Shown here in pieces: positions 10,123-53,334 of a DNA stretch of 64,000 bases. Every line of letters begins with the position of its first letter. Position 1 is the first letter of the stretch. Origin of the DNA: Candidatus Levyibacteriota bacterium (GTDB lineage: Bacteria > Patescibacteriota > Microgenomatia > Levybacterales > UBA12049); contig PLZJ01000002.1 of the NCBI GenBank assembly GCA_003152105.1, positions 533,682 to 597,681 of the forward strand, written 5' to 3'. The translations under genes were made by a program, and so were the position numbers. The notes beneath the pieces were generated by a model that was not told where the DNA came from, ran no database searches, and was given only the letters and a program-made list of their open reading frames with translations.

Positions 10123-11067
10123 ATGGGTGAAGGAAGTAAAGATTTTAGTGATAATCCAGTACTAAGAAAATATCAAGATGAGTTTGAAAGACAAACACGT
10201 GAAAGACGAAAAGCTGAAGCTGCAAAAAAACATCCAAAACGCCACCATATGCCAAGAGCAAGTGATGATATTACGGTAAGAGAAAATCAAGGAGATGGAC
10301 GTAACCAAAAACCTCCTATGACTGACCTTGATGCTGATATTAAAGCAGGACAAGAACTAATGCAATTTGCAAATAGCTCGTTTGTACATGGGCACTTGGT
10401 AGTACCAGACAGTAATCCAACAACCCGAGAAAGTGATGAAGAAACTGAAACGCCGCAGCAACAAAGAGCTAAAAAGCAAGAAGAAACTACAGCTCGTATA
10501 AAAGAAAAAGTTGGTGAAAGAGCATTATTACCAAATAGGGTAAGTCGGATGCTTGAGGACGAAATAACTCGCGAACAATTAGATATTTTAGCAAGTCAGG
10601 TACAAAATGAACCAGGAATTTTACGAGAATACGGAGTGACTAATCAAGGGATGGTTTTTGCTCTTAAAGAAGCGGAACAGGCAGAGCAGGTAGATACTCG
10701 TGACATAACAGTATTTGCGTATAACGCAGCACTTCCAAGCGATGAACTCGTAGGACAAAAAACACGATTTGCCATACCAAAACGTTTTATAACTCGAGAT
10801 AGTAATGCTGCCTACATACAATTTCCAGGCATAGTTGTTTTTGACGCATTTACCAAGCTTGCTCATATGAGTGATGATGAAATTAGAGAAAAATATCCAA
10901 AAGATAAAGATCTTGTAGAAGCGGTAAGGCTATATCAAAAAATCGGATCATTTAAAATTACTAAAGCAGACATGGGAAATAATGACCCATTATATAAAAC
11001 AGGATTAAATCTTCGAAGAAATGTATCGGGAAATGCTTCTTTACCAACTCTTGAAAAAGGTAAATAA
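10123..11067 (+). CDS. Hypothetical protein (314 aa) with a highly charged, low-complexity N-terminal half
   Basis: Promoter TTGACA-N17-TGTACT-N6-ATG at 10088-10125. No TM or signal peptide seen. Confidence 0.5.
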   Translation: MGEGSKDFSDNPVLRKYQDEFERQTRERRKAEAAKKHPKRHHMPRASDDITVRENQGDGRNQKPPMTDLDADIKAGQELMQFANSSFVHGHLVVPDSNPTTRESDEETETPQQQRAKKQEETTARIKEKVGERALLPNRVSRMLEDEITREQLDILASQVQNEPGILREYGVTNQGMVFALKEAEQAEQVDTRDITVFAYNAALPSDELVGQKTRFAIPKRFITRDSNAAYIQFPGIVVFDAFTKLAHMSDDEIREKYPKDKDLVEAVRLYQKIGSFKITKADMGNNDPLYKTGLNLRRNVSGNASLPTLEKGK

Positions 11068-11088: not shown

Positions 11089-11688
11089 ATGGAACAAGAA
11101 CAGCAAAGTAGAGATATAAGCACAAACCAAATGTTACTTGCCCAAAAAAGTGAGTTTGCAAAGCAAGTACAAAAAGACAAAGCTATATTAGAATTCACAC
11201 AAAAAATACGAAATCAACTTTTGTCAGATAAACTACATGAGAAAGCGGTTAAAGGAGCTTTAGAAAATCCAGATGCAAGTCAAGGACTAGAACTTTTTGC
11301 CCGTTCGGTTTTTGAAACGCCAACAAAACTAGAAGCAACAGGAGTAAATGGAACCATGGTTGTTGCTATTAAACAAGGACCAGCACTTGCAGAAAATGAA
11401 GCGTTTGCATTTGATTTAGCAAAGCCAGAGGATGGGGTAGTTAAAACATTACTTTTGGCGCAACATACTGCAAAAACAGGAAAGGATAAAGGAGTTATGC
11501 TAGTTCCAGACGCGTCGCTTCGTGAAACGATGACCAGAGAAAATAATCGAAGCGATGAAGAAATATTAGCAGATAAAAATAGTGATTATCTCAAGTTTGT
11601 ACGCTTTGTAAATAAAACACAGGGACTAGTGATTTCGCTTCCTAAAAATGGTCGAGCAATGCAGGTTCGGGTTGGCGGCATGTTATAA
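11089..11688 (+). CDS. Hypothetical protein (199 aa)
   Basis: ORF 21 nt downstream of the previous gene. No recognisable motif. Confidence 0.5.
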   Translation: MEQEQQSRDISTNQMLLAQKSEFAKQVQKDKAILEFTQKIRNQLLSDKLHEKAVKGALENPDASQGLELFARSVFETPTKLEATGVNGTMVVAIKQGPALAENEAFAFDLAKPEDGVVKTLLLAQHTAKTGKDKGVMLVPDASLRETMTRENNRSDEEILADKNSDYLKFVRFVNKTQGLVISLPKNGRAMQVRVGGML

Positions 11689-11702: not shown

Positions 11703-13550
11703 CTACTGATATGCTTTTTGTAAAAATGAAGCGGTTTCTAACAGTAGTTTTTTCTTTTGTATTGCTGTCATAGTGGTTAGATCAATTAATCCATTTTTAT
11801 GTGATTGATAGACAGAAAGAAGTGCCTCGTCAGCAATTGCATGTTTGCCAAGTTTTTTAGCGAGTGTAATAAATGGTGAGTGGTAATACAAAAGTTCAGT
11901 TGGTTTTCCTTCTGCTATTTTTGTTGCCGCTTGTGGAGGTTGATTATTTCTTCCTTTTGCAACAAGCGACGCTATTTTACCTCTCCCAAGTGATAAAAGT
12001 GGTGTTGGTAAATGTGATAATTTAGGAATTAAAGATAGATTATTCCACGGAACTTTTGGTAAAGTTATACCGCTCTCGGAAAGGAGTGATAATCTTTCTT
12101 TCATTGCGTTTGTTTCAAAAGCAAACAACTCTTTGTCTTTAAATGTATCTTTTGGTGAAAGTCCAGTGAGTGCAGCAGAACTACCTAATACATTTGCTAA
12201 TGCTTTAGCATATGCAAGGGATGTTGAATCTTCGAATTCTTCAACATCAAAGCCGCTTCTTTCAAACAGTGCAACTGCTTTTTTAAATTCTCGATACTCT
12301 TCACTGGAAAATACCGTTTTCTCATCTCGAGAAATAGGAGAAAGTCCTATTCTTAATTTTGTTTTATCATATGCATTGCCCTCTTCTTGACTCGTAACAG
12401 GAGTAAACAAACTTGCTCGAACTAGCGTTATATTGCTATCTTTACATATTCTTACTGCTTGATCAGCAATTTCTAAACCATTTTGAGGCAAAATTAACGT
12501 AAGTGGAGCTTTGGCGTTTTGCACAATTTCTAAAAGTAGTTGTTCAGAAGGATTTGCGGTTGCTAAGACAATTGCGTCAGGTTTTTGCTCTAGTGTTTGA
12601 ACTATACTTGAGTGCACTGTTACGTTAGGTAAACTATCATTTGAAAGGTTATCAGCTTGTTCGGGTTTTACAACAGCCAAAAGCAATAGCCCAGGAATAT
12701 GTTCTCCGAATTCTTGTATATACATTTTTCCTGTTTGACCAAAAGCGCCAATTACCGCAACTTTTGAGAATGTATCTGGTTGCTTATATTCCTCTGGAAT
12801 TATGTCCACCATATCTTCTCGTATCTTTTTATCAATTGTTTTAAATGACGTTTGAGATAGAAGTTCTGAGGCATTATAAAAATTTCCCACTTGTAGTTTG
12901 CTTTTTTTCCCTAAGTTAAAAGTGCCTGCGGTTCGTTTGTTGTAACGCTTTGTCTTTTCAAGAGACATGGCAACTTCCAAAATGCCAAAATCAGTTACTC
13001 CTTCTCGTTTCATGGAAGCAATAAATGCACCCAACGGACGCTGCAAATCATCCATGACAAGAAATGGTTGGCGACTTGCATTAATAGCTATTGCAACTGT
13101 CTCTCCATTTTGGAGAGCTTCTTTACTTTTTCGCATAAGTGCTTCATAAGATTTTCTCCTCTCCTCATCAGTTGTTTTTTCAAATTTTTTCTTTTGCATT
13201 GAGGAGTCATTAATAATTGGTTGAAGTGTGCCACCAAAAAGTTCAGAAGCAGCACCAAGATGCGTATTATATTGATGTGCTGAAACAGGATTAAGATATC
13301 GTTTTTGAGAAAATCCATCATGCTGCGAAATAAGATCTTTGATGATTTGCGGGCCGTCTCGAAAACTAAAATGTGTAAAAATAATAACCACTCCTTTACC
13401 TTCATTTATGCATTCAGCTGCAAGATCTAATGAATGTCGAGGATCTTCAACTTCTCCAGGCCAAAGAAAAGGAAGTGAAGCAACTTTTGAAACTATTTTG
13501 CGCACTGCATGCTCTGATTTTGTAATGGTAGGAAATGGCGTTTCTTTCAT
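11703..13550 (-). CDS. Fusion protein: N-terminal HX4D (GPAT/PlsC-like) acyltransferase domain plus NAD(P)-binding GpsA/ketopantoate-reductase-like domain
   Basis: HFSFRD (HX4D with Ser at +2) in VVIIFTHFSFRDGPQ. Mid-protein Rossmann KVAVIGAFGQTGK, plus LPQNG and a helical C-terminal domain of the 6PGD/ApbA type. Confidence 0.5.
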   Translation of the reverse strand: MKETPFPTITKSEHAVRKIVSKVASLPFLWPGEVEDPRHSLDLAAECINEGKGVVIIFTHFSFRDGPQIIKDLISQHDGFSQKRYLNPVSAHQYNTHLGAASELFGGTLQPIINDSSMQKKKFEKTTDEERRKSYEALMRKSKEALQNGETVAIAINASRQPFLVMDDLQRPLGAFIASMKREGVTDFGILEVAMSLEKTKRYNKRTAGTFNLGKKSKLQVGNFYNASELLSQTSFKTIDKKIREDMVDIIPEEYKQPDTFSKVAVIGAFGQTGKMYIQEFGEHIPGLLLLAVVKPEQADNLSNDSLPNVTVHSSIVQTLEQKPDAIVLATANPSEQLLLEIVQNAKAPLTLILPQNGLEIADQAVRICKDSNITLVRASLFTPVTSQEEGNAYDKTKLRIGLSPISRDEKTVFSSEEYREFKKAVALFERSGFDVEEFEDSTSLAYAKALANVLGSSAALTGLSPKDTFKDKELFAFETNAMKERLSLLSESGITLPKVPWNNLSLIPKLSHLPTPLLSLGRGKIASLVAKGRNNQPPQAATKIAEGKPTELLYYHSPFITLAKKLGKHAIADEALLSVYQSHKNGLIDLTTMTAIQKKKLLLETASFLQKAYQ

Positions 13551-13664
13551 ATAACAATGGAAGGGATTATCTCACTTATATAGGATAAATTCAATATATA
13601 TTCAAAGTTTTAGTACAACTTTGATTGACGAGCAAATGATGGAAAAACTATACTTTACTATACT

Positions 13665-13883: not shown

Positions 13884-14432
13884 TTATACCTTATAAGTAA
13901 GTAATATATTCCCATTTTTAAATAATTTAGTATCTTGAAGTATAAACGATGTATGATTTTTTAAACCAGTAAATAAGCTGGTACCTTTGCCAATAGCAAT
14001 TGGATTTACCATAATTCGCAGTTCATCAAGAAGCTTATTTTCCAAAAGATATGTTGCAAGTATATTGCTACCAAAAACTCCCATATCTCCGCTGGAATTG
14101 TTTTTCATTTTTATAAGTTTCTCTTCAATATTATTGCTCAATACTTTTGTGTTTTCCCACGTAGGATTTTTTATTGTTTTAGAGACAACAATTTTAGAAG
14201 CGCTATTCATAAGCATTGCAGTTTTTGGATCGTCATTTTTCTGTGGATTTGGCCAGTAACTTGCCATTAGATCATAGGTACGGCCGCCAAATAAAAGGAG
14301 CGATGTGTTTTTAAGCTGCGTATTAGCAAACTCTTCAAATTCTTTGTCTACATGATGCCATGAAAGATCATGATTTGGTCCTTCAATATATCCATCTAGT
14401 GAAATCATCATAAAAAGGTATAGTCTACTCAT
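13884..14432 (-). CDS. Dihydrofolate-reductase-family protein (RibD C-terminal-domain-like)
   Basis: MMISLDGYIEGP…LLFGGRTYD…GSNILATYL pattern of the DHFR-like/RibD_C family. Confidence 0.7.
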   Translation of the reverse strand: MSRLYLFMMISLDGYIEGPNHDLSWHHVDKEFEEFANTQLKNTSLLLFGGRTYDLMASYWPNPQKNDDPKTAMLMNSASKIVVSKTIKNPTWENTKVLSNNIEEKLIKMKNNSSGDMGVFGSNILATYLLENKLLDELRIMVNPIAIGKGTSLFTGLKNHTSFILQDTKLFKNGNILLTYKV

Positions 14433-14549: not shown

Positions 14550-16046
14550 TTGTTTTTCGTGTTTTTTAAAAAAACACGCGATATGTTGTTACCAAAACAA
14601 TCACTTTTTACTAACTACTTATTTCTTCTTACATGTATATTATTTCTCGCAGCAGTTCTTCGATTTGTAAATTATGATGCTCGTTTTGGCTTGGCAAGTG
14701 ATCAAGCAAGAGATGCACTCATAATACAAGAAGCAGTGAAAGAGCATACTTTGCCCTTAATCGGAGCATTTTCAGCATCAGGACCTTTTGTATTTGGTCC
14801 TTATTTTTACTGGGCCTTTTATATTCCCGTTGCGCTATTTCCTCATTTTGTGTTAACACCATGGATTTTTCTTACCCTGTTATACATAGGTATAGTTGGC
14901 ATTATGTTTTCCATTGGAGAAAAAGTATATGACCGAAATTTTGGATTACTGCTTGCTTTTTTTACTGCAATTTCTCCTGTTGAACTTAGCTTATCATCAA
15001 ATTTGATTTATTCTGCATTAGTAGGATTTTTTGCAACATGTACGCTCTATTTTTTTGTTTCCTATATTAAAGCTCCCTCAAGACGATTTCTTTTTTTCTT
15101 TGCGCTTTTTTTAAGCTTATCTGTAAATACGCATTTTGAAGCAATGCCACTTTTGCTTATGATTCCCTTTGTTTTATATTTTGGTAAACGTACGTTGTCT
15201 CATATGAGCATGCTTTTTCTTGGATTACTGCTGCCTCTTACCCCACTTATTATTTTTAATTTTGAATATCATTTTTATGAGCTTAATAACATTATTCACT
15301 TTATACTTTTTCATCCGCAAACAACGCTTGTTACAAAGCGATGGCTAACAACACTTACCTCATCATGGCCAACAAGATGGGGAGACACCATTGGTGGAAC
15401 TAAGCTAATTGGTGGAATTGAAATAATACTATTATTACTTGTTGCCGGTTATAGTATCTATGCAAAAAAAATACAAAAGGAAATAGGAATTGTAATGGGA
15501 GTATTTATTTGTATGGTGGTTATGCTTCGGTATTTTAATGGGATAATTTTCGAAAGTTTTTTAGCATTTATCATTCCTTTTATACTTCTTCTTTTTGCAT
15601 GGGCTTGTTATGAAATTGTAAAACGAAACGTATATATTGGAATGTTTATACTATTTTGTATTGTTTGTGCAAATACCTTTGTTATCTACCAAACGATTAC
15701 AAAAGCCAGTAATCCAATGAGAACCACAACAATACACTGGGTAAATAAACTCGCGACCACCAAAGCAAAAACTTTTTCCGTTTATCAATATAAGAGCCAG
15801 CAGTCAGAACAAGCATTGTCACTTAGTTTGTATTTAAATTCAGAAGGAAAAGCAGCAATCAGTGGTGATAAAATTGCTCTTGCTTCATTTGGAGCACCTA
15901 TTAATGAGCAAGTGTTATTTACGGGACATGATAGAAGTCGAATGTATACGTTACAAGGTGTATCTGATGCATCACTTACCAAAGAAGGATTTAGTTCAAT
16001 TAGTGCAAAAAGCGTATATAATGCTACTGAAAACTGGTATAAATAA
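14550..16046 (+). CDS. Polytopic membrane protein, putative GT-C-fold glycosyltransferase (family A paralog)
   Basis: About 12 TM helices. First loop carries D-x2-RD-x-L-I…TLPLIG…SGPF-x-FGPY-x-YW, shared with 47962, 50273 and 51748. Alternative ATG at 14592. Confidence 0.5.
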   Translation: MFFVFFKKTRDMLLPKQSLFTNYLFLLTCILFLAAVLRFVNYDARFGLASDQARDALIIQEAVKEHTLPLIGAFSASGPFVFGPYFYWAFYIPVALFPHFVLTPWIFLTLLYIGIVGIMFSIGEKVYDRNFGLLLAFFTAISPVELSLSSNLIYSALVGFFATCTLYFFVSYIKAPSRRFLFFFALFLSLSVNTHFEAMPLLLMIPFVLYFGKRTLSHMSMLFLGLLLPLTPLIIFNFEYHFYELNNIIHFILFHPQTTLVTKRWLTTLTSSWPTRWGDTIGGTKLIGGIEIILLLLVAGYSIYAKKIQKEIGIVMGVFICMVVMLRYFNGIIFESFLAFIIPFILLLFAWACYEIVKRNVYIGMFILFCIVCANTFVIYQTITKASNPMRTTTIHWVNKLATTKAKTFSVYQYKSQQSEQALSLSLYLNSEGKAAISGDKIALASFGAPINEQVLFTGHDRSRMYTLQGVSDASLTKEGFSSISAKSVYNATENWYK

Positions 16047-47961: not shown

Positions 47962-49458
47962 ATGACTATTTTATCTCATATGCCATACAAAAGGCATTTA
48001 TCAAAAATTCATTTCTTACCGCTACATACCATTTTTCTTATTTGTATAATCATTGCCTCGTTTTACTTTCGATTTTATAATACGCCAAATCGTTATGGGT
48101 TTGATCCAGATCCTGTAAGAGATGCTTTAACAATTTATCAAGGAGCAACTCATTTTCAATTTCCTCTAACTGGAGCAATGTCAGGTATTGCACCATTTAC
48201 TTTTGGACCTTGGTATTATTATCAACTTATTCTTTTTCAAATACTTTTCCCACTTAACTATGCCCCTTGGATATTTATAGGACTTTCTTCAGTGCTTGCT
48301 GTATTTGTAATGTATAAGATTGGAAGTAGCCTTGAAAATAAATGGTTTGGACTAATGCTTGCTTTATTTATGGCACTTAGTCCTTCAGAAACAGGACAAA
48401 CGCAGGGACTTAGTAATCCTGATTTAGTACCTTTATATACTACGCTTATCATATGGATTTTTATAATGCTTATGAAAAAGAATACAGCAAGTTGGTGGCT
48501 TCTGATTTGGGGAGTTGTATTTGGCATTGGTATAAATATTCATTATCAGATTATTTTATTATTACCACTTTTTCTTTTTTATCTCTATTTCAACTCATCT
48601 CACATACTCAAAAAGAGCATACATTTCTTCCTAGGACTTGGCATTACATTTATACCCCTTTTGCTGTTTAATTTATTTACAAATTGGCATACAGTACGTG
48701 GTGTTTTATATTATGTCACGATAGGAAGAGCTACAACGTATATTCCAAATAGCTGGAAAATTTATTTATTCTCATTTTGGTTACCGTATCTATCATATAT
48801 ATTTGGATTAACAAATTTAAATCAAATTATCTTATTTTTTCTTTCAATTATGGGATTAGTTTACGCCTCATTTATTAAAAAACTACATCGAATATATCTT
48901 ATTTTTATACTTACTTTTATATTGGATTTTTTTATCTTAAGATATTTTCTAGCAAATCGTGATTATTATTACTACTTATTTCTTCACCCAATTATTTTTA
49001 TTTTAGTTGGTTTCGCTCTTTGGCAACTTAGAACTTTTAGATTTGGTAAAGTTGCAATTTTGTTTATATTATTTTTTATTATTATTGGAATGATTCCGCA
49101 AGATCAACAAAGATTAGTGTCTCGGGTTGATAATATTGGAATGAGCAATCAAGCAGAGTTTTTAATGAATAAATTTCCAAATCGACCAATTAGCATTTAT
49201 GCATGCTCGAATAATAGAGTAGTAAATCTAGCAGAAGGTATAGTATTTTTTCTTAAAAATAATCATAGATTAGGTATGGGTGAGGGAACAAAAATAGCTA
49301 TTATTAATAACGACTGCAAGACAACTCTTTCAGGATTTGCTAAATATGAAGAATATTCAGAAGTTGAACTTACTAATGATTTAGCTTTGGTAAATCAAAA
49401 GAAACTTATGCTCATAACCCCAAAAGAAATATACAATGCAAATGTATCGTGGTGGTAA
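47962..49458 (+). CDS. Polytopic membrane protein, family A paralog (putative GT-C)
   Basis: FDPDPVRDALTIYQG…PLTGAMSGIAPFTFGPWYYYQ. Confidence 0.5.
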   Translation: MTILSHMPYKRHLSKIHFLPLHTIFLICIIIASFYFRFYNTPNRYGFDPDPVRDALTIYQGATHFQFPLTGAMSGIAPFTFGPWYYYQLILFQILFPLNYAPWIFIGLSSVLAVFVMYKIGSSLENKWFGLMLALFMALSPSETGQTQGLSNPDLVPLYTTLIIWIFIMLMKKNTASWWLLIWGVVFGIGINIHYQIILLLPLFLFYLYFNSSHILKKSIHFFLGLGITFIPLLLFNLFTNWHTVRGVLYYVTIGRATTYIPNSWKIYLFSFWLPYLSYIFGLTNLNQIILFFLSIMGLVYASFIKKLHRIYLIFILTFILDFFILRYFLANRDYYYYLFLHPIIFILVGFALWQLRTFRFGKVAILFILFFIIIGMIPQDQQRLVSRVDNIGMSNQAEFLMNKFPNRPISIYACSNNRVVNLAEGIVFFLKNNHRLGMGEGTKIAIINNDCKTTLSGFAKYEEYSEVELTNDLALVNQKKLMLITPKEIYNANVSWW

Positions 49459-50276: not shown

Positions 50277-51751
50277 AAAAAAAATTTATTGGTATTTTGC
50301 TTGTTATTAGTTTTTTAATTCCATTTTTGTTTGATGTACGTACCGTAATTACTGGCGACATTCCGTTTTGGTTTGATCCTGCACAATCATTTTTGCTTGC
50401 GCTTTCAAATATTTCAAAGTTAACCCTTATTGGACATCCAAGTGGGGGAATTCATGGGTTATTTTATGGACCATATGATATTTGGTTAATGAGTTTAGTG
50501 CTTATGATATCTAAAGACCCAAGACTCGTTGCATTCTTGCTCTATACATTGCCATATTTTACAGTATTTCCATTTATAATATATAAATTTTCTAAGTTAT
50601 TTGGTAAATATACAACAGTACTACTTTGGCTCTTATTTGCACTAAATTTTGGTAATTATGCAAAACAGATTTGGAATCCACATCCAGCGCCAATTTTTAT
50701 ATTAGCCGTTATATATCTGCTAACAACAGTCGACTTTACATTTAAAAATAAATTTTCCATCCATCGTTTATTGCTTGCAGGAATTTTAGGAGGTTGCGTT
50801 GTAAATCTACATTTATCATTTGGCATTGCTTTTCTACTGGGTTTATATGTTTACCTATTTGTATTAGTATGCACAAAAAAGACTTCATTGCTACATTTTG
50901 GGAAAAGCTTAGTGGTACTTACTATTGGAATACTAATAACATTTATTCCTTATTTCCTTTTTGAAATTAGGCATGGATTTATTCAAACACATGCAGTTAT
51001 CGCTTCAGTATTTGGCAATGCTTCGCAAACCGGAATAGCAGGGTTGACCAAAGATCAAATCATTTATTCTTTCTTAAATAGAATGGGTTTACTACTTGGT
51101 GTGTCATTTACTTTTTCCATACTAATTCAAATTATTCTTGTAGGGCTGCTTGTCTATTACATTATTTCGAAAAAGAAGAAATTACCACTTATTGAACAAA
51201 AATTACTTTTTATTTTAGGATCAATCACTTTATCAGCAGTTGTAATCTTTATGACAGATAAAAATCCTGTTTGGGATTATTATTTTGTCGGTACTGAAAT
51301 AATTTCATTATTATTTCTTGGATATGTTACAAGTAAGTTTACCTACGTAAAATATGTACTATCTGCGTGGATTGTACTACTTATTGTCTTTCAATTTTTT
51401 CAATTTATTACTTATATTCCAGAAAATTCTTCACTAAAAACTGAAGAAACTGCTGTATTAATTGTTAAAAATTCAATAAAAACAAATAACTATTATGTAT
51501 TTGCATATAATCCAGCAATTTACACATTCGATTATGATTATCTATTTTTATGGTTAGCAAATAAAGCTACCTCGCACAATAAAAGTGAAATTACCGAAAA
51601 TATCCCTGTATATATAATATTTCCAAAAGAAAGCGTACAAAAGATGCAAGGCTACGAGTATTATCTTACACCGCAAAAAACTTATAAAACAACAGGAATG
51701 TGGAAAGTATCTGATGGCAGCACAATTATTAGACGCGAAAAAACTATATGA
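50273..51751 (+). CDS. Polytopic membrane protein, divergent family A paralog
   Basis: DPAQSFLLALSNISKLTLIGHPSGGIHGLFYGPYDIW aligns with the family A first loop. ATGA overlap with 49515. A9 tract at codons 2-4. Confidence 0.45.
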   Translation: MKKKFIGILLVISFLIPFLFDVRTVITGDIPFWFDPAQSFLLALSNISKLTLIGHPSGGIHGLFYGPYDIWLMSLVLMISKDPRLVAFLLYTLPYFTVFPFIIYKFSKLFGKYTTVLLWLLFALNFGNYAKQIWNPHPAPIFILAVIYLLTTVDFTFKNKFSIHRLLLAGILGGCVVNLHLSFGIAFLLGLYVYLFVLVCTKKTSLLHFGKSLVVLTIGILITFIPYFLFEIRHGFIQTHAVIASVFGNASQTGIAGLTKDQIIYSFLNRMGLLLGVSFTFSILIQIILVGLLVYYIISKKKKLPLIEQKLLFILGSITLSAVVIFMTDKNPVWDYYFVGTEIISLLFLGYVTSKFTYVKYVLSAWIVLLIVFQFFQFITYIPENSSLKTEETAVLIVKNSIKTNNYYVFAYNPAIYTFDYDYLFLWLANKATSHNKSEITENIPVYIIFPKESVQKMQGYEYYLTPQKTYKTTGMWKVSDGSTIIRREKTI

Positions 51752-53334
51752 AGAAAAATACCTTCATTAGTTATCCCGCTGTTGTTACTTTTTTTAAAAA
51801 ATTGCATCACCGTTATTCATATTATTTTTTGGCAATAATGATAATTGCCATTTTTTTACGAGTATATAAGCTTTATAGTAGAGTCCGTTTAGACAGTGAT
51901 TCAAGTCGAGATGTGTTAATAATTGTTGAGTCGATTCATAGATCGATACTTCCGTTAATTGGTCCATTTAGTTCTGCGGGAGCATTTGTTACTGGTCCTC
52001 TTTATTATTGGTTGCTAATTCCAAGTGGTTACTTTTTTCATGTATATTTTTTCGCGCCCTGGTTATTTTTAGCATTTTGTTCTATTTGTACAGTGATTGT
52101 GTTAATGAAAATAGCTTACTTACTAGGAGGGAATAAAAATGCAGTAATAACCGGAATATTAGCATGTTCTTCTCCTATTTTAATATATTTTTCATTAGCT
52201 TTAACAAATCCAACATTTATTTTATTATTTTCTTCTCTTATACTTCTTTCATTTATACTTCTTATGCAAGAGAAAAAGATAATGTACGCAATACTGCTCG
52301 GATTACTGCTTGGTATAGCCCTGAATATGCATTATCAAGCTTTAAATTTACTTATTTTCCTACCCGCCATTTTTTTTATAAAAGATTCATTTAAAAACAA
52401 AGTAGTCGATCTTATAAGTAGTATAGTTGGATTTTTTATAACGCTTATACCAATTTTGATATGGGATTCGAATCAGAGTTTTGCTAACACCCGAAATGTT
52501 CTAGATTACTTTTTGATTGGAGAATATAGAATATATGTACCTAATAGTTGGAAAATATTTTTGTTTACAGATATGCCTAATATTTGGAGTCAAGTTTTTA
52601 CTACAATACCGCTTTTAGGATTAATAAGTATGATTGTTGTATTACTTTTTGCAATAATGATATTTAGAAAATTCAAGAAAAATTATAACCTTTCACTTAT
52701 ACTTGTAATTTTTTTCATGTTGCTTTTTGTAAATAGATATTATCATGGTCTTCGATCTGTGGCATATCTATTTTATCTAATTCCCTTTCTTATTATTTTT
52801 CTATCGCTTGGAATAAACTATTTTTTCTTTTCACATTTCAAACAAAATAGAATACTCCCTATTTTAGGATATTTAGTTTTGATTTCTATATTTTTACTTA
52901 ATATCAATGGAATTAAAAGTCAGTATAGTAATACCAATTCAGATTATGCCTTAACAAGGGCTGCTATAGACACAGTAACACAGAGATATCCTGGAAAATC
53001 TTTTACTGTATATGATTATAAAGATAGTAATTTGGCATCTACGTTATCATTTAGCTTAGTACTATCAAGAGAAAATAAAGAATCAAACAGCGGTATTCCA
53101 ATTGGCATTTGTTCTTCAAATTGTCCAACTGGGTCAGCGTATAAAGTAAAAACAAATGTAAATAAATTTTCAATATATAATTTACAAAAATCGCAAGTTA
53201 CTGGTAAGCTTGGAAACAATATCTGGCATGACATAAATCAAACAAATGTTTATGATCAGTTAATTGGATGGTCCAATAAACACGAGCTTACTTCTTCTTT
53301 TGATCTCAGAAAATATATATTATCAAAAATATAA
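51748..53334 (+). CDS. Polytopic membrane protein, family A paralog (putative GT-C)
   Basis: LDSDSSRDVLIIVES…LPLIGPFSSAGAFVTGPLYYW. Confidence 0.5.
   Translation: MKKNTFISYPAVVTFFKKLHHRYSYYFLAIMIIAIFLRVYKLYSRVRLDSDSSRDVLIIVESIHRSILPLIGPFSSAGAFVTGPLYYWLLIPSGYFFHVYFFAPWLFLAFCSICTVIVLMKIAYLLGGNKNAVITGILACSSPILIYFSLALTNPTFILLFSSLILLSFILLMQEKKIMYAILLGLLLGIALNMHYQALNLLIFLPAIFFIKDSFKNKVVDLISSIVGFFITLIPILIWDSNQSFANTRNVLDYFLIGEYRIYVPNSWKIFLFTDMPNIWSQVFTTIPLLGLISMIVVLLFAIMIFRKFKKNYNLSLILVIFFMLLFVNRYYHGLRSVAYLFYLIPFLIIFLSLGINYFFFSHFKQNRILPILGYLVLISIFLLNINGIKSQYSNTNSDYALTRAAIDTVTQRYPGKSFTVYDYKDSNLASTLSFSLVLSRENKESNSGIPIGICSSNCPTGSAYKVKTNVNKFSIYNLQKSQVTGKLGNNIWHDINQTNVYDQLIGWSNKHELTSSFDLRKYILSKI

What the first reader, a model, noticed from the sequence alone, without database searches (positions are those of the whole stretch)
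11703..13550. Rosetta-stone fusion of an HX4D lysophospholipid/glycerol-phosphate acyltransferase-like domain with a GpsA/ketopantoate-reductase-fold NAD(P) oxidoreductase
The N-terminus carries HFSFRD, an HX4D motif with Ser at +2 as in AGPAT/GPAT motif I. Residues ~260-460 carry a glycine-rich Rossmann motif (VIGAFGQTGK), an LPQNG motif, and a helical C-terminal domain characteristic of the 6PGD-like family that includes glycerol-3-phosphate dehydrogenase GpsA and ketopantoate reductase. If the dehydrogenase is GpsA-like, the protein would couple DHAP reduction to acylation of glycerol-3-P, the first two steps of phospholipid synthesis, in one polypeptide. I have not seen this arrangement described. 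It would be attractive in a reduced genome.
Basis: partly seen in the sequence, partly recalled or inferred. Interest (0 to 1): 0.55.

Follow-up and report, generated by a model that had tools for sequence, protein, structure and literature searches.

The report
Acyltransferase fused to ketopantoate-reductase-like reductase
This gene encodes one protein that joins a divergent lipid acyltransferase to an NAD(P)H reductase of the ketopantoate-reductase family (not GpsA); the two modules are paired repeatedly across uncultured bacteria next to fatty-acid and acyl-carrier genes, so it probably carries out a coupled "reduce and acylate" step of membrane-lipid synthesis that has not been described.

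Summary
ORF 11703-13550 (-) encodes a 615-aa two-domain protein carrying the motifs HFSFRD, GAFGQTG and LPQNG. The N-half (1-258) gets no Pfam hit on its own. Its family profile is homologous to canonical PF01553 acyltransferases (hhalign 97.7%, E 2.6e-12). Its AlphaFold model (pLDDT 96) matches only glycerol-3-phosphate acyltransferases in the PDB. His60 is invariant and Asp65, His92 and Arg160 are nearly so, which points to an active enzyme. The C-half is a ketopantoate-reductase (ApbA/PanE) family reductase, not GpsA. KPRs fill Foldseek ranks 1-38 (TMt 0.76-0.79) and GpsA first appears at rank 39 (TMt 0.61). Pfam ApbA hits 39 of 53 family members and the GpsA models hit none. The KPR catalytic Asn/Lys/Glu are kept (N357, K449, E552), but the Ser that binds the pantoate carboxylate aligns to Pro. 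The two modules occur fused in this order, fused in the reverse order, as adjacent separate genes, and alone. Their neighbours include FabH-like genes, ACP, a phosphopantetheinyl transferase, acetyl-CoA carboxylase, lipase-like hydrolases, a HAD phosphatase, a MIP channel and a PcrB/GGGPS-like gene. The best reading is a bifunctional reductase-acyltransferase of acyl-lipid synthesis, most likely DHAP to lysophosphatidate. The substrate is inferred, not shown. I found no description in the literature.

The parts
11703..13550 (-). Whole ORF, 615 aa plus stop: bifunctional acyltransferase-reductase
12777..13550 (-). N-terminal domain (residues 1-258): divergent GPAT/PlsC-superfamily acyltransferase ('A2-type')
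   Evidence: AlphaFold pLDDT 96.1. Foldseek top 4 hits are all GPATs: 8e4y, 1k30, 8ia1, 1iuq, E 3e-6 to 1e-4. hhalign to canonical PF01553 domains gives 97.65%, E 2.6e-12. PF01553 hits 13/64 family members.
13356..13373 (-). Motif I HX4D (H60-F-S-F-R-D65), the predicted catalytic dyad
   Evidence: H60 in 64/64, D65 in 61/64. Aligns to NHxSHxDH of the canonical domains.
13275..13277 (-). His92 of the family motif PxAxHQ, conserved in 63/64; candidate acceptor/phosphate-pocket residue (inferred)
   Evidence: the role is inference only
13071..13088 (-). Degenerate motif III (A155-I-N-A-S-R160), equivalent to canonical (F/Y)PEGTR. Arg is kept, Glu becomes Asn, Gly becomes Ala.
   Evidence: hhalign column mapping. 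R160 in 61/64; position 157 is Q or N in 62/64.
11706..12776 (-). C-terminal domain (residues 259-615): ketopantoate-reductase (ApbA/PanE) family NAD(P)H reductase
   Evidence: Foldseek ranks 1-38 are KPR family, E 7e-13, TMt 0.76-0.79; GpsA is rank 39, TMt 0.61. Profile vs PDB: T. kodakarensis KPR E 4e-20. Pfam ApbA 39/53, ApbA_C 35/53, GpsA models 0/53.
12729..12749 (-). Rossmann dinucleotide motif G268-A-F-G271-Q-T-G274
   Evidence: G268 51/51, G271 51/52, G274 52/52
12666..12668 (-). Lys295 after strand beta2, basic (R/K/H) in 43/48. It is the candidate 2'-phosphate contact, which suggests NADPH (inferred by analogy with Arg31 of E. coli KPR).
   Evidence: inference
12477..12485 (-). Q356-N357-G358, equivalent to the KPR 'QNG' motif with catalytic Asn98 (E. 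coli numbering)
   Evidence: aligned to sIQNGL of 5hws; Q 52/53, N 51/53
12192..12206 (-). K449-A-L-A-N453, equivalent to KPR Lys176/Asn180 (general acid)
   Evidence: aligned to KWAKAIVN of 5hws; K 53/53, N 51/53
12114..12116 (-). Glu479, invariant and specific to this family; role unknown
   Evidence: 53/53
11934..11951 (-). R534-N-N536-Q-P-P539. This replaces the KPR 'N241-x-S-S244' substrate motif. The Asn is kept (39/53) and the carboxylate-binding Ser aligns to Pro.
   Evidence: alignment to ReNYNS-TLQD of 5hws; conservation
11883..11897 (-). E552-L-L-Y-Y556, equivalent to KPR Glu256 'TExDY'
   Evidence: aligned to TEVDY of 5hws; E 44/53, Y556 50/53
13566..13594 (-). Promoter-like site (TTGAAT, 17 nt spacer, TG-GATAAT) ending 16 nt before the ATG. 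Possible own promoter; consensus match only.
   Evidence: the number of such sites in the region is not above the shuffle expectation

Best explanation
The gene encodes a soluble bifunctional enzyme of acyl-lipid (most likely glycerolipid) synthesis. The C-terminal KPR-family domain uses NAD(P)H, probably NADPH, to reduce a ketone through the conserved Asn357/Lys449/Glu552 machinery. The N-terminal GPAT-fold domain uses its His60/Asp65 dyad to transfer an acyl group from a thioester donor onto a hydroxyl of the same metabolite. Acyl-ACP is the favoured donor, given the ACP and phosphopantetheinyl-transferase neighbours in relatives. The most likely net reaction is DHAP + NAD(P)H + acyl-ACP/CoA -> 1-acyl-glycerol-phosphate (lysophosphatidate). 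Two orders are possible: reduction first (a non-homologous functional analogue of GpsA feeding a GPAT), or acylation first (DHAP acyltransferase followed by acyl-DHAP reductase). Shown: the domain identities, the conservation of catalytic residues, the recurrent fusion, fission and permutation of the two modules, and the lipid-related neighbourhoods. Inferred: the substrate, the donor, the order of steps and the stereochemistry.
For: Domain identities come (acyltransferase; KPR family). Catalytic residues are conserved in both halves. Functional coupling shows in five ways. There are four N-C fusions (P0001, P0002, P0004, P0005) and about 25 reductase-then-canonical-PF01553 fusions. P0051 is a reductase followed by an A2-type domain. 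P0066 is another acyltransferase followed by the reductase. L013 has separate adjacent reductase and acyltransferase genes where the syntenic L012 has a fusion. Lipid context appears in several loci. FabH-like genes lie nearby in L002, L013 and L005. ACPS, HAD and ACP lie beside the fusion in L017 and L019. An acetyl-CoA carboxylase fusion, BCCP-like gene, biotin ligase and a 4-bp-overlapping SDR lie beside a stand-alone A2-type gene in L005. A lipase-like hydrolase overlaps one in L008. Three hints point to glycerol or glycerol-phosphate: a MIP channel next to the L002 cluster, a PcrB/GGGPS-family gene 28 bp upstream of the 41%-identical P0004, and the HAD phosphatase. L002 carries two acyltransferase types plus one reductase, as expected for two sequential acylations. 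The only significant structural matches of the N-domain are G3P acyltransferases. The KPR carboxylate-binding Ser is lost while Arg378, Arg400 and Arg534 are conserved, which fits an anionic substrate that is not pantoate.
Against: No known glycerol-phosphate dehydrogenase or acyl-DHAP reductase belongs to the KPR family, whose characterised members all reduce 2-keto acids. Fold similarity to GpsA is clearly weaker than to KPR. Acyltransferase motifs II and IV are not recognisable, and motif III is degenerate in the window protein (NASR in place of EGTR). Each glycerol-related neighbour (MIP, PcrB-like) was seen only once and did not recur in the other loci. In the window itself the gene sits among unrelated genes and a glycan island, with no lipid gene in 64 kb. 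Presence or absence of gpsA/plsX/Y/C in the genome could not be checked.
Confidence: 0.45

Rival explanations
1. The reductase works on the acyl donor rather than the acceptor. A FabH-like condensing enzyme makes a 3-ketoacyl-ACP, the KPR-like domain reduces it to 3-hydroxyacyl-ACP in the manner of FabG or 3-hydroxyacyl-CoA dehydrogenase, and the acyltransferase domain transfers the hydroxyacyl chain to an acceptor lipid or glycan.
For: FabH-like genes lie adjacent or near in three loci. ACP and ACPS are adjacent in L017 and L019. In L005 the stand-alone acyltransferase is translationally coupled to an SDR of the FabG/FabI type, which suggests that a ketoacyl reductase can replace the KPR-like partner. 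3-Hydroxyacyl-CoA dehydrogenases share the 6PGD-like fold (established knowledge), and one member gave a weak 3HCDH_RFF hit.
Against: No FabH, ACP or ACPS gene lies within 64 kb of the window gene. The KPR-type active site (QNG, KxxxN, TExxY) is retained rather than that of 3HCDH. The MIP, PcrB-like and HAD neighbours are not explained. fab and pls genes commonly cluster anyway, so proximity to FabH or an SDR does not identify the reductase substrate.
Confidence: 0.17
2. The reductase is a true 2-keto-acid reductase, like KPR or D-mandelate dehydrogenase. It makes a D-2-hydroxy acid (for example glycerate from hydroxypyruvate, or a branched 2-hydroxy acid), and the acyltransferase domain O-acylates that product. 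The result would be an unusual acyl-hydroxyacid head group or anchor for the envelope glycoconjugates encoded nearby.
For: All close structural and sequence relatives reduce 2-keto acids. The catalytic triad and the Asn241 equivalent (N536) are retained. In the window and in L001 the gene lies beside large glycosylation clusters.
Against: The carboxylate-binding Ser244 position is Pro or Ser (P538/P539) in the family. The acyltransferase domain resembles G3P acyltransferases. The glycosylation context is absent from most other loci.
Confidence: 0.13
3. The reductase is an ordinary ketopantoate reductase for pantothenate/CoA synthesis, fused by accident or for regulation (for example CoA sensing) to a lysophospholipid acyltransferase, with no shared metabolite.
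For: The best sequence matches are PanE models. T. kodakarensis KPR, the best PDB hit, is deposited in complex with CoA (5ayv).
Against: NCBIfam scores of about 31 bits are far below the PanE equivalog cut-offs of 141-371. The substrate Ser is lost. Independent fusions in both orders plus gene adjacency argue for a shared pathway. No pan genes were seen in any neighbourhood.
Confidence: 0.05
4. One of the two domains is catalytically dead and serves only as a scaffold, regulatory or membrane-targeting module.
For: Motif III is degenerate and motifs II and IV are missing in the N-domain. There is no Pfam hit on the window's N-half.
Against: The predicted catalytic residues of both domains are invariant or nearly so across 64 and 53 diverse homologues. 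Both halves also exist as stand-alone proteins.
Confidence: 0.05

Closest known systems
Soluble plastid glycerol-3-phosphate acyltransferase (squash ATS1, PDB 1k30/1iuq) and human GPAT1 (8e4y)
   Same: These are the best and only significant structural matches of the N-domain. They share the HX4D dyad and a motif III Arg in an 'APxGGR'-like context. The family consensus APQGGR resembles the plant APSGGRDR, which I recall from memory and did not test. The acyl donor is a thioester.
   Different: Only 12-15% identity and TM 0.5-0.6. The window lacks the N-terminal helical domain of the plant enzyme. Motif III Glu is replaced by Gln or Asn. Motifs II and IV are not recognisable. The domain is fused to a reductase.
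PlsC/LPAAT-type acyltransferases (Pfam PF01553; T. maritima PlsC 5kym)
   Same: Homologous: hhalign 97.7% to PF01553-positive domains fused to the same reductase family. Motif I is shared.
   Different: The window domain itself falls below Pfam detection. 5kym reaches only E 0.78 with the family profile. No two-helix membrane anchor is evident.
Ketopantoate reductase PanE/ApbA and D-mandelate dehydrogenase (KPR family; 8ix9, 5hws, 1ks9, 5x20)
   Same: Same fold (TMt 0.76-0.79), GxGxxG, QNG (Asn98), KxxxN (Lys176/Asn180) and TExxY (Glu256).
   Different: 14-18% identity. About 50 extra residues in the helical domain. Ser244 of the SSMLQD motif is replaced by Pro. There is a family-specific invariant Glu479 and conserved Arg378, Arg400 and Arg534. 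It is fused or adjacent to acyltransferases and far below the PanE equivalog cut-offs.
GpsA, NAD(P)H-dependent glycerol-3-phosphate dehydrogenase (3k96)
   Same: Same 6PGD-like two-domain superfold.
   Different: A weaker structural match (rank 39, TMt 0.61). No sequence match to GpsA in the PDB at E<=0.01. No Pfam NAD_Gly3P_dh hit in 53 members. QNG sits where GpsA carries its own Lys-Gly motif (from memory, not tested).
Eukaryotic DHAP pathway (GNPAT/DHAPAT plus acyl-DHAP reductase Ayr1/DHRS7B) and myxobacterial ElbD (reductase plus AGPAT-like domains in ether-lipid synthesis)
   Same: These are precedents for pairing a PF01553-type acyltransferase with an NADPH reductase on a glycerol-backbone precursor (established knowledge).
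   Different: Those reductases belong to the SDR or fatty-acyl-reductase families, not KPR. They are not fused in this way. No homology to them was tested here beyond the SDR neighbour in L005.

Membership tests
GPAT/AGPAT (PlsC-like, PF01553) acyltransferase superfamily | Motif I HX4D with catalytic His and Asp | tested here: met
   H60-x4-D65; H in 64/64, D in 61/64 homologues. Aligned to NHxSHxDH.
GPAT/AGPAT (PlsC-like, PF01553) acyltransferase superfamily | Motif III (F/Y)-P-E-G-T-R | tested here: inconclusive
   The aligned segment is I-N-A-S-R160 in the window and A-P-Q-G-G-R in the family. Arg is kept (61/64), Glu is replaced by Gln or Asn, and Gly is Ala in the window.
GPAT/AGPAT (PlsC-like, PF01553) acyltransferase superfamily | Motifs II (GxxFIxR) and IV (xxPxxI) | tested here: not met
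   No Arg-containing motif II and no Pro in the motif IV position. The family has PxAxHQ and VGxGIxG instead.
GPAT/AGPAT (PlsC-like, PF01553) acyltransferase superfamily | Significant match to the family model or fold | tested here: met
   There is no Pfam hit for the window domain itself. However, 13/64 family members hit PF01553, hhalign to PF01553-positive domains gives 97.65%, E 2.6e-12, and the four Foldseek hits at E<=1e-3 are all GPATs.
GPAT/AGPAT (PlsC-like, PF01553) acyltransferase superfamily | Acyl transfer to G3P or LPA (activity) | not testable with these tools
   Needs an enzyme assay or complementation.
Ketopantoate reductase (ApbA/PanE) family | Two-domain fold: N-terminal Rossmann plus C-terminal helical 6PGD-like domain | tested here: met
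   Foldseek E 7e-13, TMt 0.76-0.79 to many KPR structures.
Ketopantoate reductase (ApbA/PanE) family | Catalytic Asn98, Lys176 and Glu256 (E. coli numbering) | tested here: met
   N357 (51/53), K449 (53/53), E552 (44/53), aligned to 5hws.
Ketopantoate reductase (ApbA/PanE) family | Pantoate-binding Ser244 (SSMLQD motif); orthology to PanE | tested here: not met
   The Ser aligns to Pro538/539. NCBIfam PanE equivalogs score ~31 bits against cut-offs of 141-371.
GpsA (NAD(P)H glycerol-3-phosphate dehydrogenase) | Match to the NAD_Gly3P_dh_N/C models or closest fold match | tested here: not met
   0/53 members hit the GpsA Pfam models. GpsA is absent from the PDB profile hits at E<=0.01. It ranks 39th with TMt 0.61 in Foldseek.
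GpsA (NAD(P)H glycerol-3-phosphate dehydrogenase) | DHAP reduction activity | not testable with these tools
   Needs an assay or gpsA complementation.
Rosetta-stone (functionally linked) domain pair | The same two families found fused in some genomes and as separate, preferably adjacent, genes in others | tested here: met
   N-C fusions, C-N fusions, split adjacent genes in L013 against a fusion in the syntenic L012, and stand-alone forms.

The most novel reading that the evidence does not exclude
The KPR-like module is a previously unrecognised class of glycerol-phosphate dehydrogenase that replaces GpsA in some uncultured bacteria. In lineages where it sits next to a PcrB/GGGPS-type prenyltransferase (L010), it might even supply sn-glycerol-1-phosphate. 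That would make it the 'as yet unknown' bacterial source of G1P noted for bacteria that carry GGGPS but no G1P dehydrogenase (Coleman et al. 2019, PMC6431249), with the fused acyltransferase making mixed or unusual-chirality acyl-glycerol-phosphate lipids.
Probability: 0.07. Interest if true: 0.85.

Novelty: new variant of a known kind. Interest (0 to 1): 0.55.

Why it matters
The first committed steps of bacterial phospholipid synthesis are thought to be covered by GpsA plus PlsB or PlsX/PlsY, then PlsC. Here, a KPR-family reductase is locked to a GPAT-fold acyltransferase in several independent gene arrangements, beside ACP, FabH and ACC genes. That would be either a non-orthologous replacement of GpsA or a bacterial DHAP-type pathway carried in a single polypeptide. 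Either would change how lipid-synthesis capacity is scored in genomes of uncultured, small-genome bacteria, where the canonical genes are often reported missing. It would also widen the known chemistry of the ketopantoate reductase family and define a large unannotated acyltransferase subfamily, about 80 stand-alone representatives that Pfam mostly misses. The prediction can be tested directly by complementation and simple spectrophotometric assays.

Tried and rejected
1. Direct Pfam, NCBIfam and PDB sequence searches of the single protein gave only weak reductase hits and nothing for the N-half. Family profiles and structure prediction were needed.

2. The search for homologous proteins with the N-domain profile returned nothing, so that search was wasted.

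3. Mixed alignment A3 was discarded because MAFFT stacked the N-only proteins onto the reductase domain.

4. The N-domain profile hit CheY in the PDB sequence search at E 1e-4. I rejected this as a spurious alpha/beta similarity, because the high-confidence model matches GPATs and no receiver domain appears in the 50 listed hits.

5. The GpsA reading of the reductase was rejected at family level.

6. The Thermomicrobium roseum 1,2-diol-lipid lead from a literature hit proved incidental.

7. The PcrB-like neighbour was tested for recurrence and found only in L010.

8. ACP, ACPS, HAD, GH125, FabH-like and MIP homologues were sought in the window and none was found.

9. The genome-contig scan found only one relative, a frameshifted permuted fusion in a Chloroflexia MAG, and not the source genome. 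The sample accession is absent from the literature library.

11. Model coordinates are not exposed, so I could not measure distances between the active sites or superpose the phosphate pocket.

12. Literature searches for this domain combination found nothing relevant.
Full report
**1. The observation**

Window 11703-13550 (minus strand) is a single ATG-initiated ORF of 615 aa. The identical protein is called on a 1.14-1.15 Mb metagenome scaffold, WOOD18-1_SAMN07125042 scaffold_5, and no source gives it a name. A promoter-like site ends 16 nt before the ATG, but the number of such sites in the region is no higher than in shuffled sequence. The 3' end converges on an unrelated ORF. The gene therefore looks monocistronic, although nothing here shows that directly.

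**2. Single-sequence searches say little**

Pfam gives no acyltransferase hit. It gives only weak hits on the C-half: GFO_IDH_MocA on the Rossmann segment and ApbA_C. NCBIfam gives 2-dehydropantoate 2-reductase models at about 31 bits, against cut-offs of 141-371. No PDB sequence matches. The indexed protein search found only the protein itself, one 43%-identical relative with the same architecture (P0002), and P0003. P0003 carries the same reductase at its N-terminus and a bona fide PF01553 acyltransferase at its C-terminus, with NHASHAD and YPEGKRSRTG motifs.

**3. The family picture**

An exhaustive HMMER search of 1.84 billion representatives gave 309 relatives. Local domain mapping sorts them into four groups:
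- **N-C fusions like the window:** P0001, P0002, P0004, P0005.
- **Reductase followed by a roughly 250-aa extension:** about 25 proteins. The extension carries canonical motif I (NHxSHxDH) and motif III (YPEGTRSR).
- **Stand-alone reductases:** about 40, of 330-400 aa.
- **Stand-alone proteins homologous to the window's N-half:** about 80, of 250-280 aa.

P0051 is a reductase followed by a domain of the window's N-type, and so bridges the two fusion orders. P0066 has yet another acyltransferase in front of the reductase.

In metagenome loci L012 and L013, the family sits between rplA and rplJ in the ribosomal-protein cluster. It is one 623-aa gene in L012 and two adjacent genes (381 + 262 aa) in L013. 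This is the classic Rosetta-stone signature and the strongest evidence that the two modules work on one pathway.

**4. The N-terminal domain**

An alignment of 64 N-type sequences (A2) shows the following conservation:

| Position (window) | Conservation |
|---|---|
| His60 | 64/64 |
| Asp65 | 61/64, Glu in the rest |
| His92 | 63/64 |
| Arg160 | 61/64 |
| Position 157 (Gln or Asn) | 62/64 |

The family consensus is NHFSxRD ... PxAxHQ ... PIVT ... GGIVxxAPQxxR ... VGxGIxG.

- **Sequence evidence.** PF01553 is hit by 13 of the 64 members.
- **Profile-profile evidence.** Comparison with the canonical acyltransferase domains of the permuted fusions (A6) gives 97.65% probability, E 2.6e-12, over 229 columns. 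It aligns motif I with motif I, and I-N-A-S-R160 with P-E-G-T-R.
- **Structural evidence.** AlphaFold with this alignment gives pLDDT 96.1. Foldseek against the PDB returns four hits at E<=1e-3 and all are glycerol-3-phosphate acyltransferases: human GPAT1 8e4y, squash 1k30/1iuq and Myrmecia 8ia1. Everything below them is noise.
- **A rejected hit.** The marginal CheY match in the profile-to-PDB sequence search is not borne out by the fold and is rejected.

The N-half is therefore a divergent member of the GPAT/AGPAT superfamily. Its catalytic dyad is intact, motif III is degenerate, and motifs II and IV are not recognisable. This subfamily is largely invisible to Pfam.

**5. The C-terminal domain**

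The full-length model has pLDDT 89.6 and pTM 0.84.
- **Fold.** Foldseek ranks 1-38 are ketopantoate reductases, KPR-family D-mandelate dehydrogenases, or other non-GpsA oxidoreductases (E down to 7e-13; TMt 0.76-0.79 for the top KPR hits). GpsA (3k96) first appears at rank 39 with TMt 0.61.
- **Sequence.** A family profile finds T. kodakarensis KPR at E 4e-20 and no GpsA at E<=0.01.
- **Pfam on 53 family members.** ApbA hits 39, ApbA_C hits 35, and the GpsA models hit none.

The alignment to KPR maps these residues:

| KPR feature (E. coli numbering) | Window residues | Conservation in family |
|---|---|---|
| GxGxxG | G268, G271, G274 | 51/51, 51/52, 52/52 |
| QNG (Asn98) | Q356-N357-G358 | N357 51/53 |
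| Lys176 / Asn180 | K449 / N453 | 53/53 and 51/53 |
| TExxY (Glu256) | E552 | 44/53 |

A basic residue follows strand beta2 (Lys295; R, K or H in 43/48). By analogy with Arg31 of E. coli KPR this suggests NADPH, which is an inference.

The KPR substrate motif N241-x-S-S244 aligns to R534-N-N536-Q-P-P539. The Asn is kept but the carboxylate-binding Ser is replaced by Pro. Arg378, Arg400, Arg534 and an invariant Glu479 are specific to this clade. The domain is therefore a KPR-family reductase with working catalytic machinery and an altered substrate pocket. It is not GpsA, and it is probably not a pantothenate-pathway PanE.

**6. Genomic context**

In the window itself the neighbours are uninformative:
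- Two family-less Lys/Glu-rich ORFs.
- A RibD_C reductase.
- A membrane glycosyltransferase-like protein.
- An M16 peptidase-like protein.
- An Acyl_transf_3 protein.
- Lon and an ABC transporter.
- A ~40 kb glycan-biosynthesis island.

L001, the locus of P0002, is partly syntenic with the window: it also carries Lon, an Acyl_transf_3 gene and PMT/GT2 genes.

Other members of the family give a consistent lipid theme:

| Locus | Arrangement |
|---|---|
| L002 | Stand-alone N-type acyltransferase, FabH-like gene, reductase-acyltransferase fusion 20 bp downstream, MIP channel |
| L013 | FabH-like gene two genes downstream of the split pair |
| L005 | Stand-alone N-type gene overlapping a FabG/FabI-type SDR by 4 bp, beside an acetyl-CoA carboxylase fusion, a BCCP-like gene, a biotin ligase and a partial FabH-like gene |
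| L008 | Stand-alone N-type gene overlapped by a lipase/LCAT-like alpha/beta-hydrolase gene |
| L017, L019 | Conserved GH125, fusion, 4'-phosphopantetheinyl transferase, HAD phosphatase, ACP |
| L010 | Divergent PcrB/GGGPS-family gene 28 bp upstream of P0004 (Pfam 27.8 bits, cut-off 23.9; PDB GGGPS E 1e-4) |
| L015 | Alpha/beta-hydrolase next to a stand-alone reductase |

The PcrB-like, MIP and HAD neighbours each point to glycerol or glycerol phosphate. The PcrB-like and MIP neighbours are single observations.

**7. Mechanism**

What is shown is two catalytically competent-looking modules under joint selection, placed in fatty-acid, ACP and lipid neighbourhoods. What is inferred is the shared metabolite.

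I favour DHAP/glycerol phosphate, at 0.45. Either the reductase makes glycerol phosphate for the GPAT-fold domain, or the GPAT-fold domain acylates DHAP and the reductase finishes acyl-DHAP. Both give DHAP + NAD(P)H + acyl-ACP/CoA -> lysophosphatidate.

Five observations point this way:
- The N-domain's only structural relatives are G3P acyltransferases.
- The glycerol-related neighbours (MIP, PcrB-like, HAD).
- L002 has two acyltransferase types plus one reductase, as two sequential acylations would need.
- The gene stands alone in the window, which suits a self-contained two-step enzyme.
- The KPR carboxylate site is lost while conserved arginines are gained.

The main objection is that no KPR-family enzyme is known to act on DHAP or acyl-DHAP.

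The rivals are:
- A donor-side 3-ketoacyl reductase working with FabH and ACP (0.17).
- A 2-keto-acid reductase whose hydroxy-acid product is O-acylated (0.13).
- A true PanE fused for unrelated reasons (0.05).
- One dead domain (0.05).

**8. Comparison and novelty**

The parts belong to known superfamilies (PF01553-like; ApbA/PanE). The combination does not appear in the searchable literature I could reach, nor do its recurrent permuted, fused and split forms or the large unannotated N-type acyltransferase clade.

I class the finding as a new variant of a known kind. It is of moderate interest and has a cheap, decisive experimental test.

**9. Limits**

- The organism is unidentified. I suspect a small-genome uncultured bacterium from the low G+C content and the ~1.14 Mb scaffold, but that is a suspicion only.
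- Only 64 kb of the genome is visible, so whether gpsA/plsX/Y/C are present is unknown.

Noticed in passing
window 22026-63853 (+ strand): A ~40 kb co-directional glycan-biosynthesis island. Pfam family hits among the 31 ORFs scanned, where one ORF can match several related models: Glycos_transf_2 in 8, PMT_2 in 5, Glycos_transf_1 in 3, YfhO in 2, flippase (Polysacc_synt) in 2, epimerase/dehydratase in 2. There is also a PfkB kinase and a cytidylyltransferase-like protein (HldE-like heptose activation?) and a GT9 heptosyltransferase. This is unusually dense for what may be a small genome.
   Followed up: partly
window 14550-16046, 47962-49458, 51748-53334: Three paralogous ~500-aa polytopic membrane proteins with no Pfam hit for the first. 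They are related to each other at E 1e-38 to 1e-40, and are probably PMT/ArnT-like glycosyltransferases.
   Followed up: partly
window 10123-11067 and 11089-11688 (+): Two adjacent Lys/Glu-rich ORFs (314 and 199 aa) with no family in Pfam. They converge on the 3' end of the studied gene and are called as genes on the source scaffold.
   Followed up: no
L017 5715-11901 and L019 4272-9454: A conserved neighbourhood around the permuted reductase-acyltransferase fusion: GH125 alpha-mannosidase-like, the fusion, a 4'-phosphopantetheinyl transferase, a HAD phosphatase and an acyl carrier protein. GH125 also follows the N-C fusion in L010.
   Followed up: partly
L010 1198-2058: A divergent PcrB/GGGPS-family (polyprenyl-glyceryl-phosphate synthase) gene 28 bp upstream of the closest same-architecture homologue, P0004. 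It hints at glycerol-1-phosphate chemistry in that organism. It was not found in the other loci.
   Followed up: partly
L012 3828-5699 vs L013 3629-5567: The family is inserted between rplA and rplJ of the conserved nusG-rplK-rplA-rplJ-rplL cluster. It is one fused gene in L012 and two genes in the syntenic L013 from the same metagenome, a recent fusion or fission caught in the act.
   Followed up: partly
L003 5866-7851 (Chloroflexia MAG CAWCWN010000003.1): The only GTDB-representative hit is a permuted fusion broken by frameshifts and stops. It is either a long-read assembly error or a pseudogene.
   Followed up: no
alignment A2 (N-domain family) vs PDB sequences: The profile hits CheY receiver domains at E ~1e-4 over about 105 residues, better than any acyltransferase by sequence, yet the fold search shows no receiver-domain similarity. 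It is probably a chance alpha/beta sequence-pattern match.
   Followed up: partly
window 13884-14432 (-) and L002 1-115: A RibD_C/DHFR-like reductase lies directly upstream of the studied gene in the window, and one also occurs ~10 kb from the fusion in L002. This is probably coincidence.
   Followed up: no
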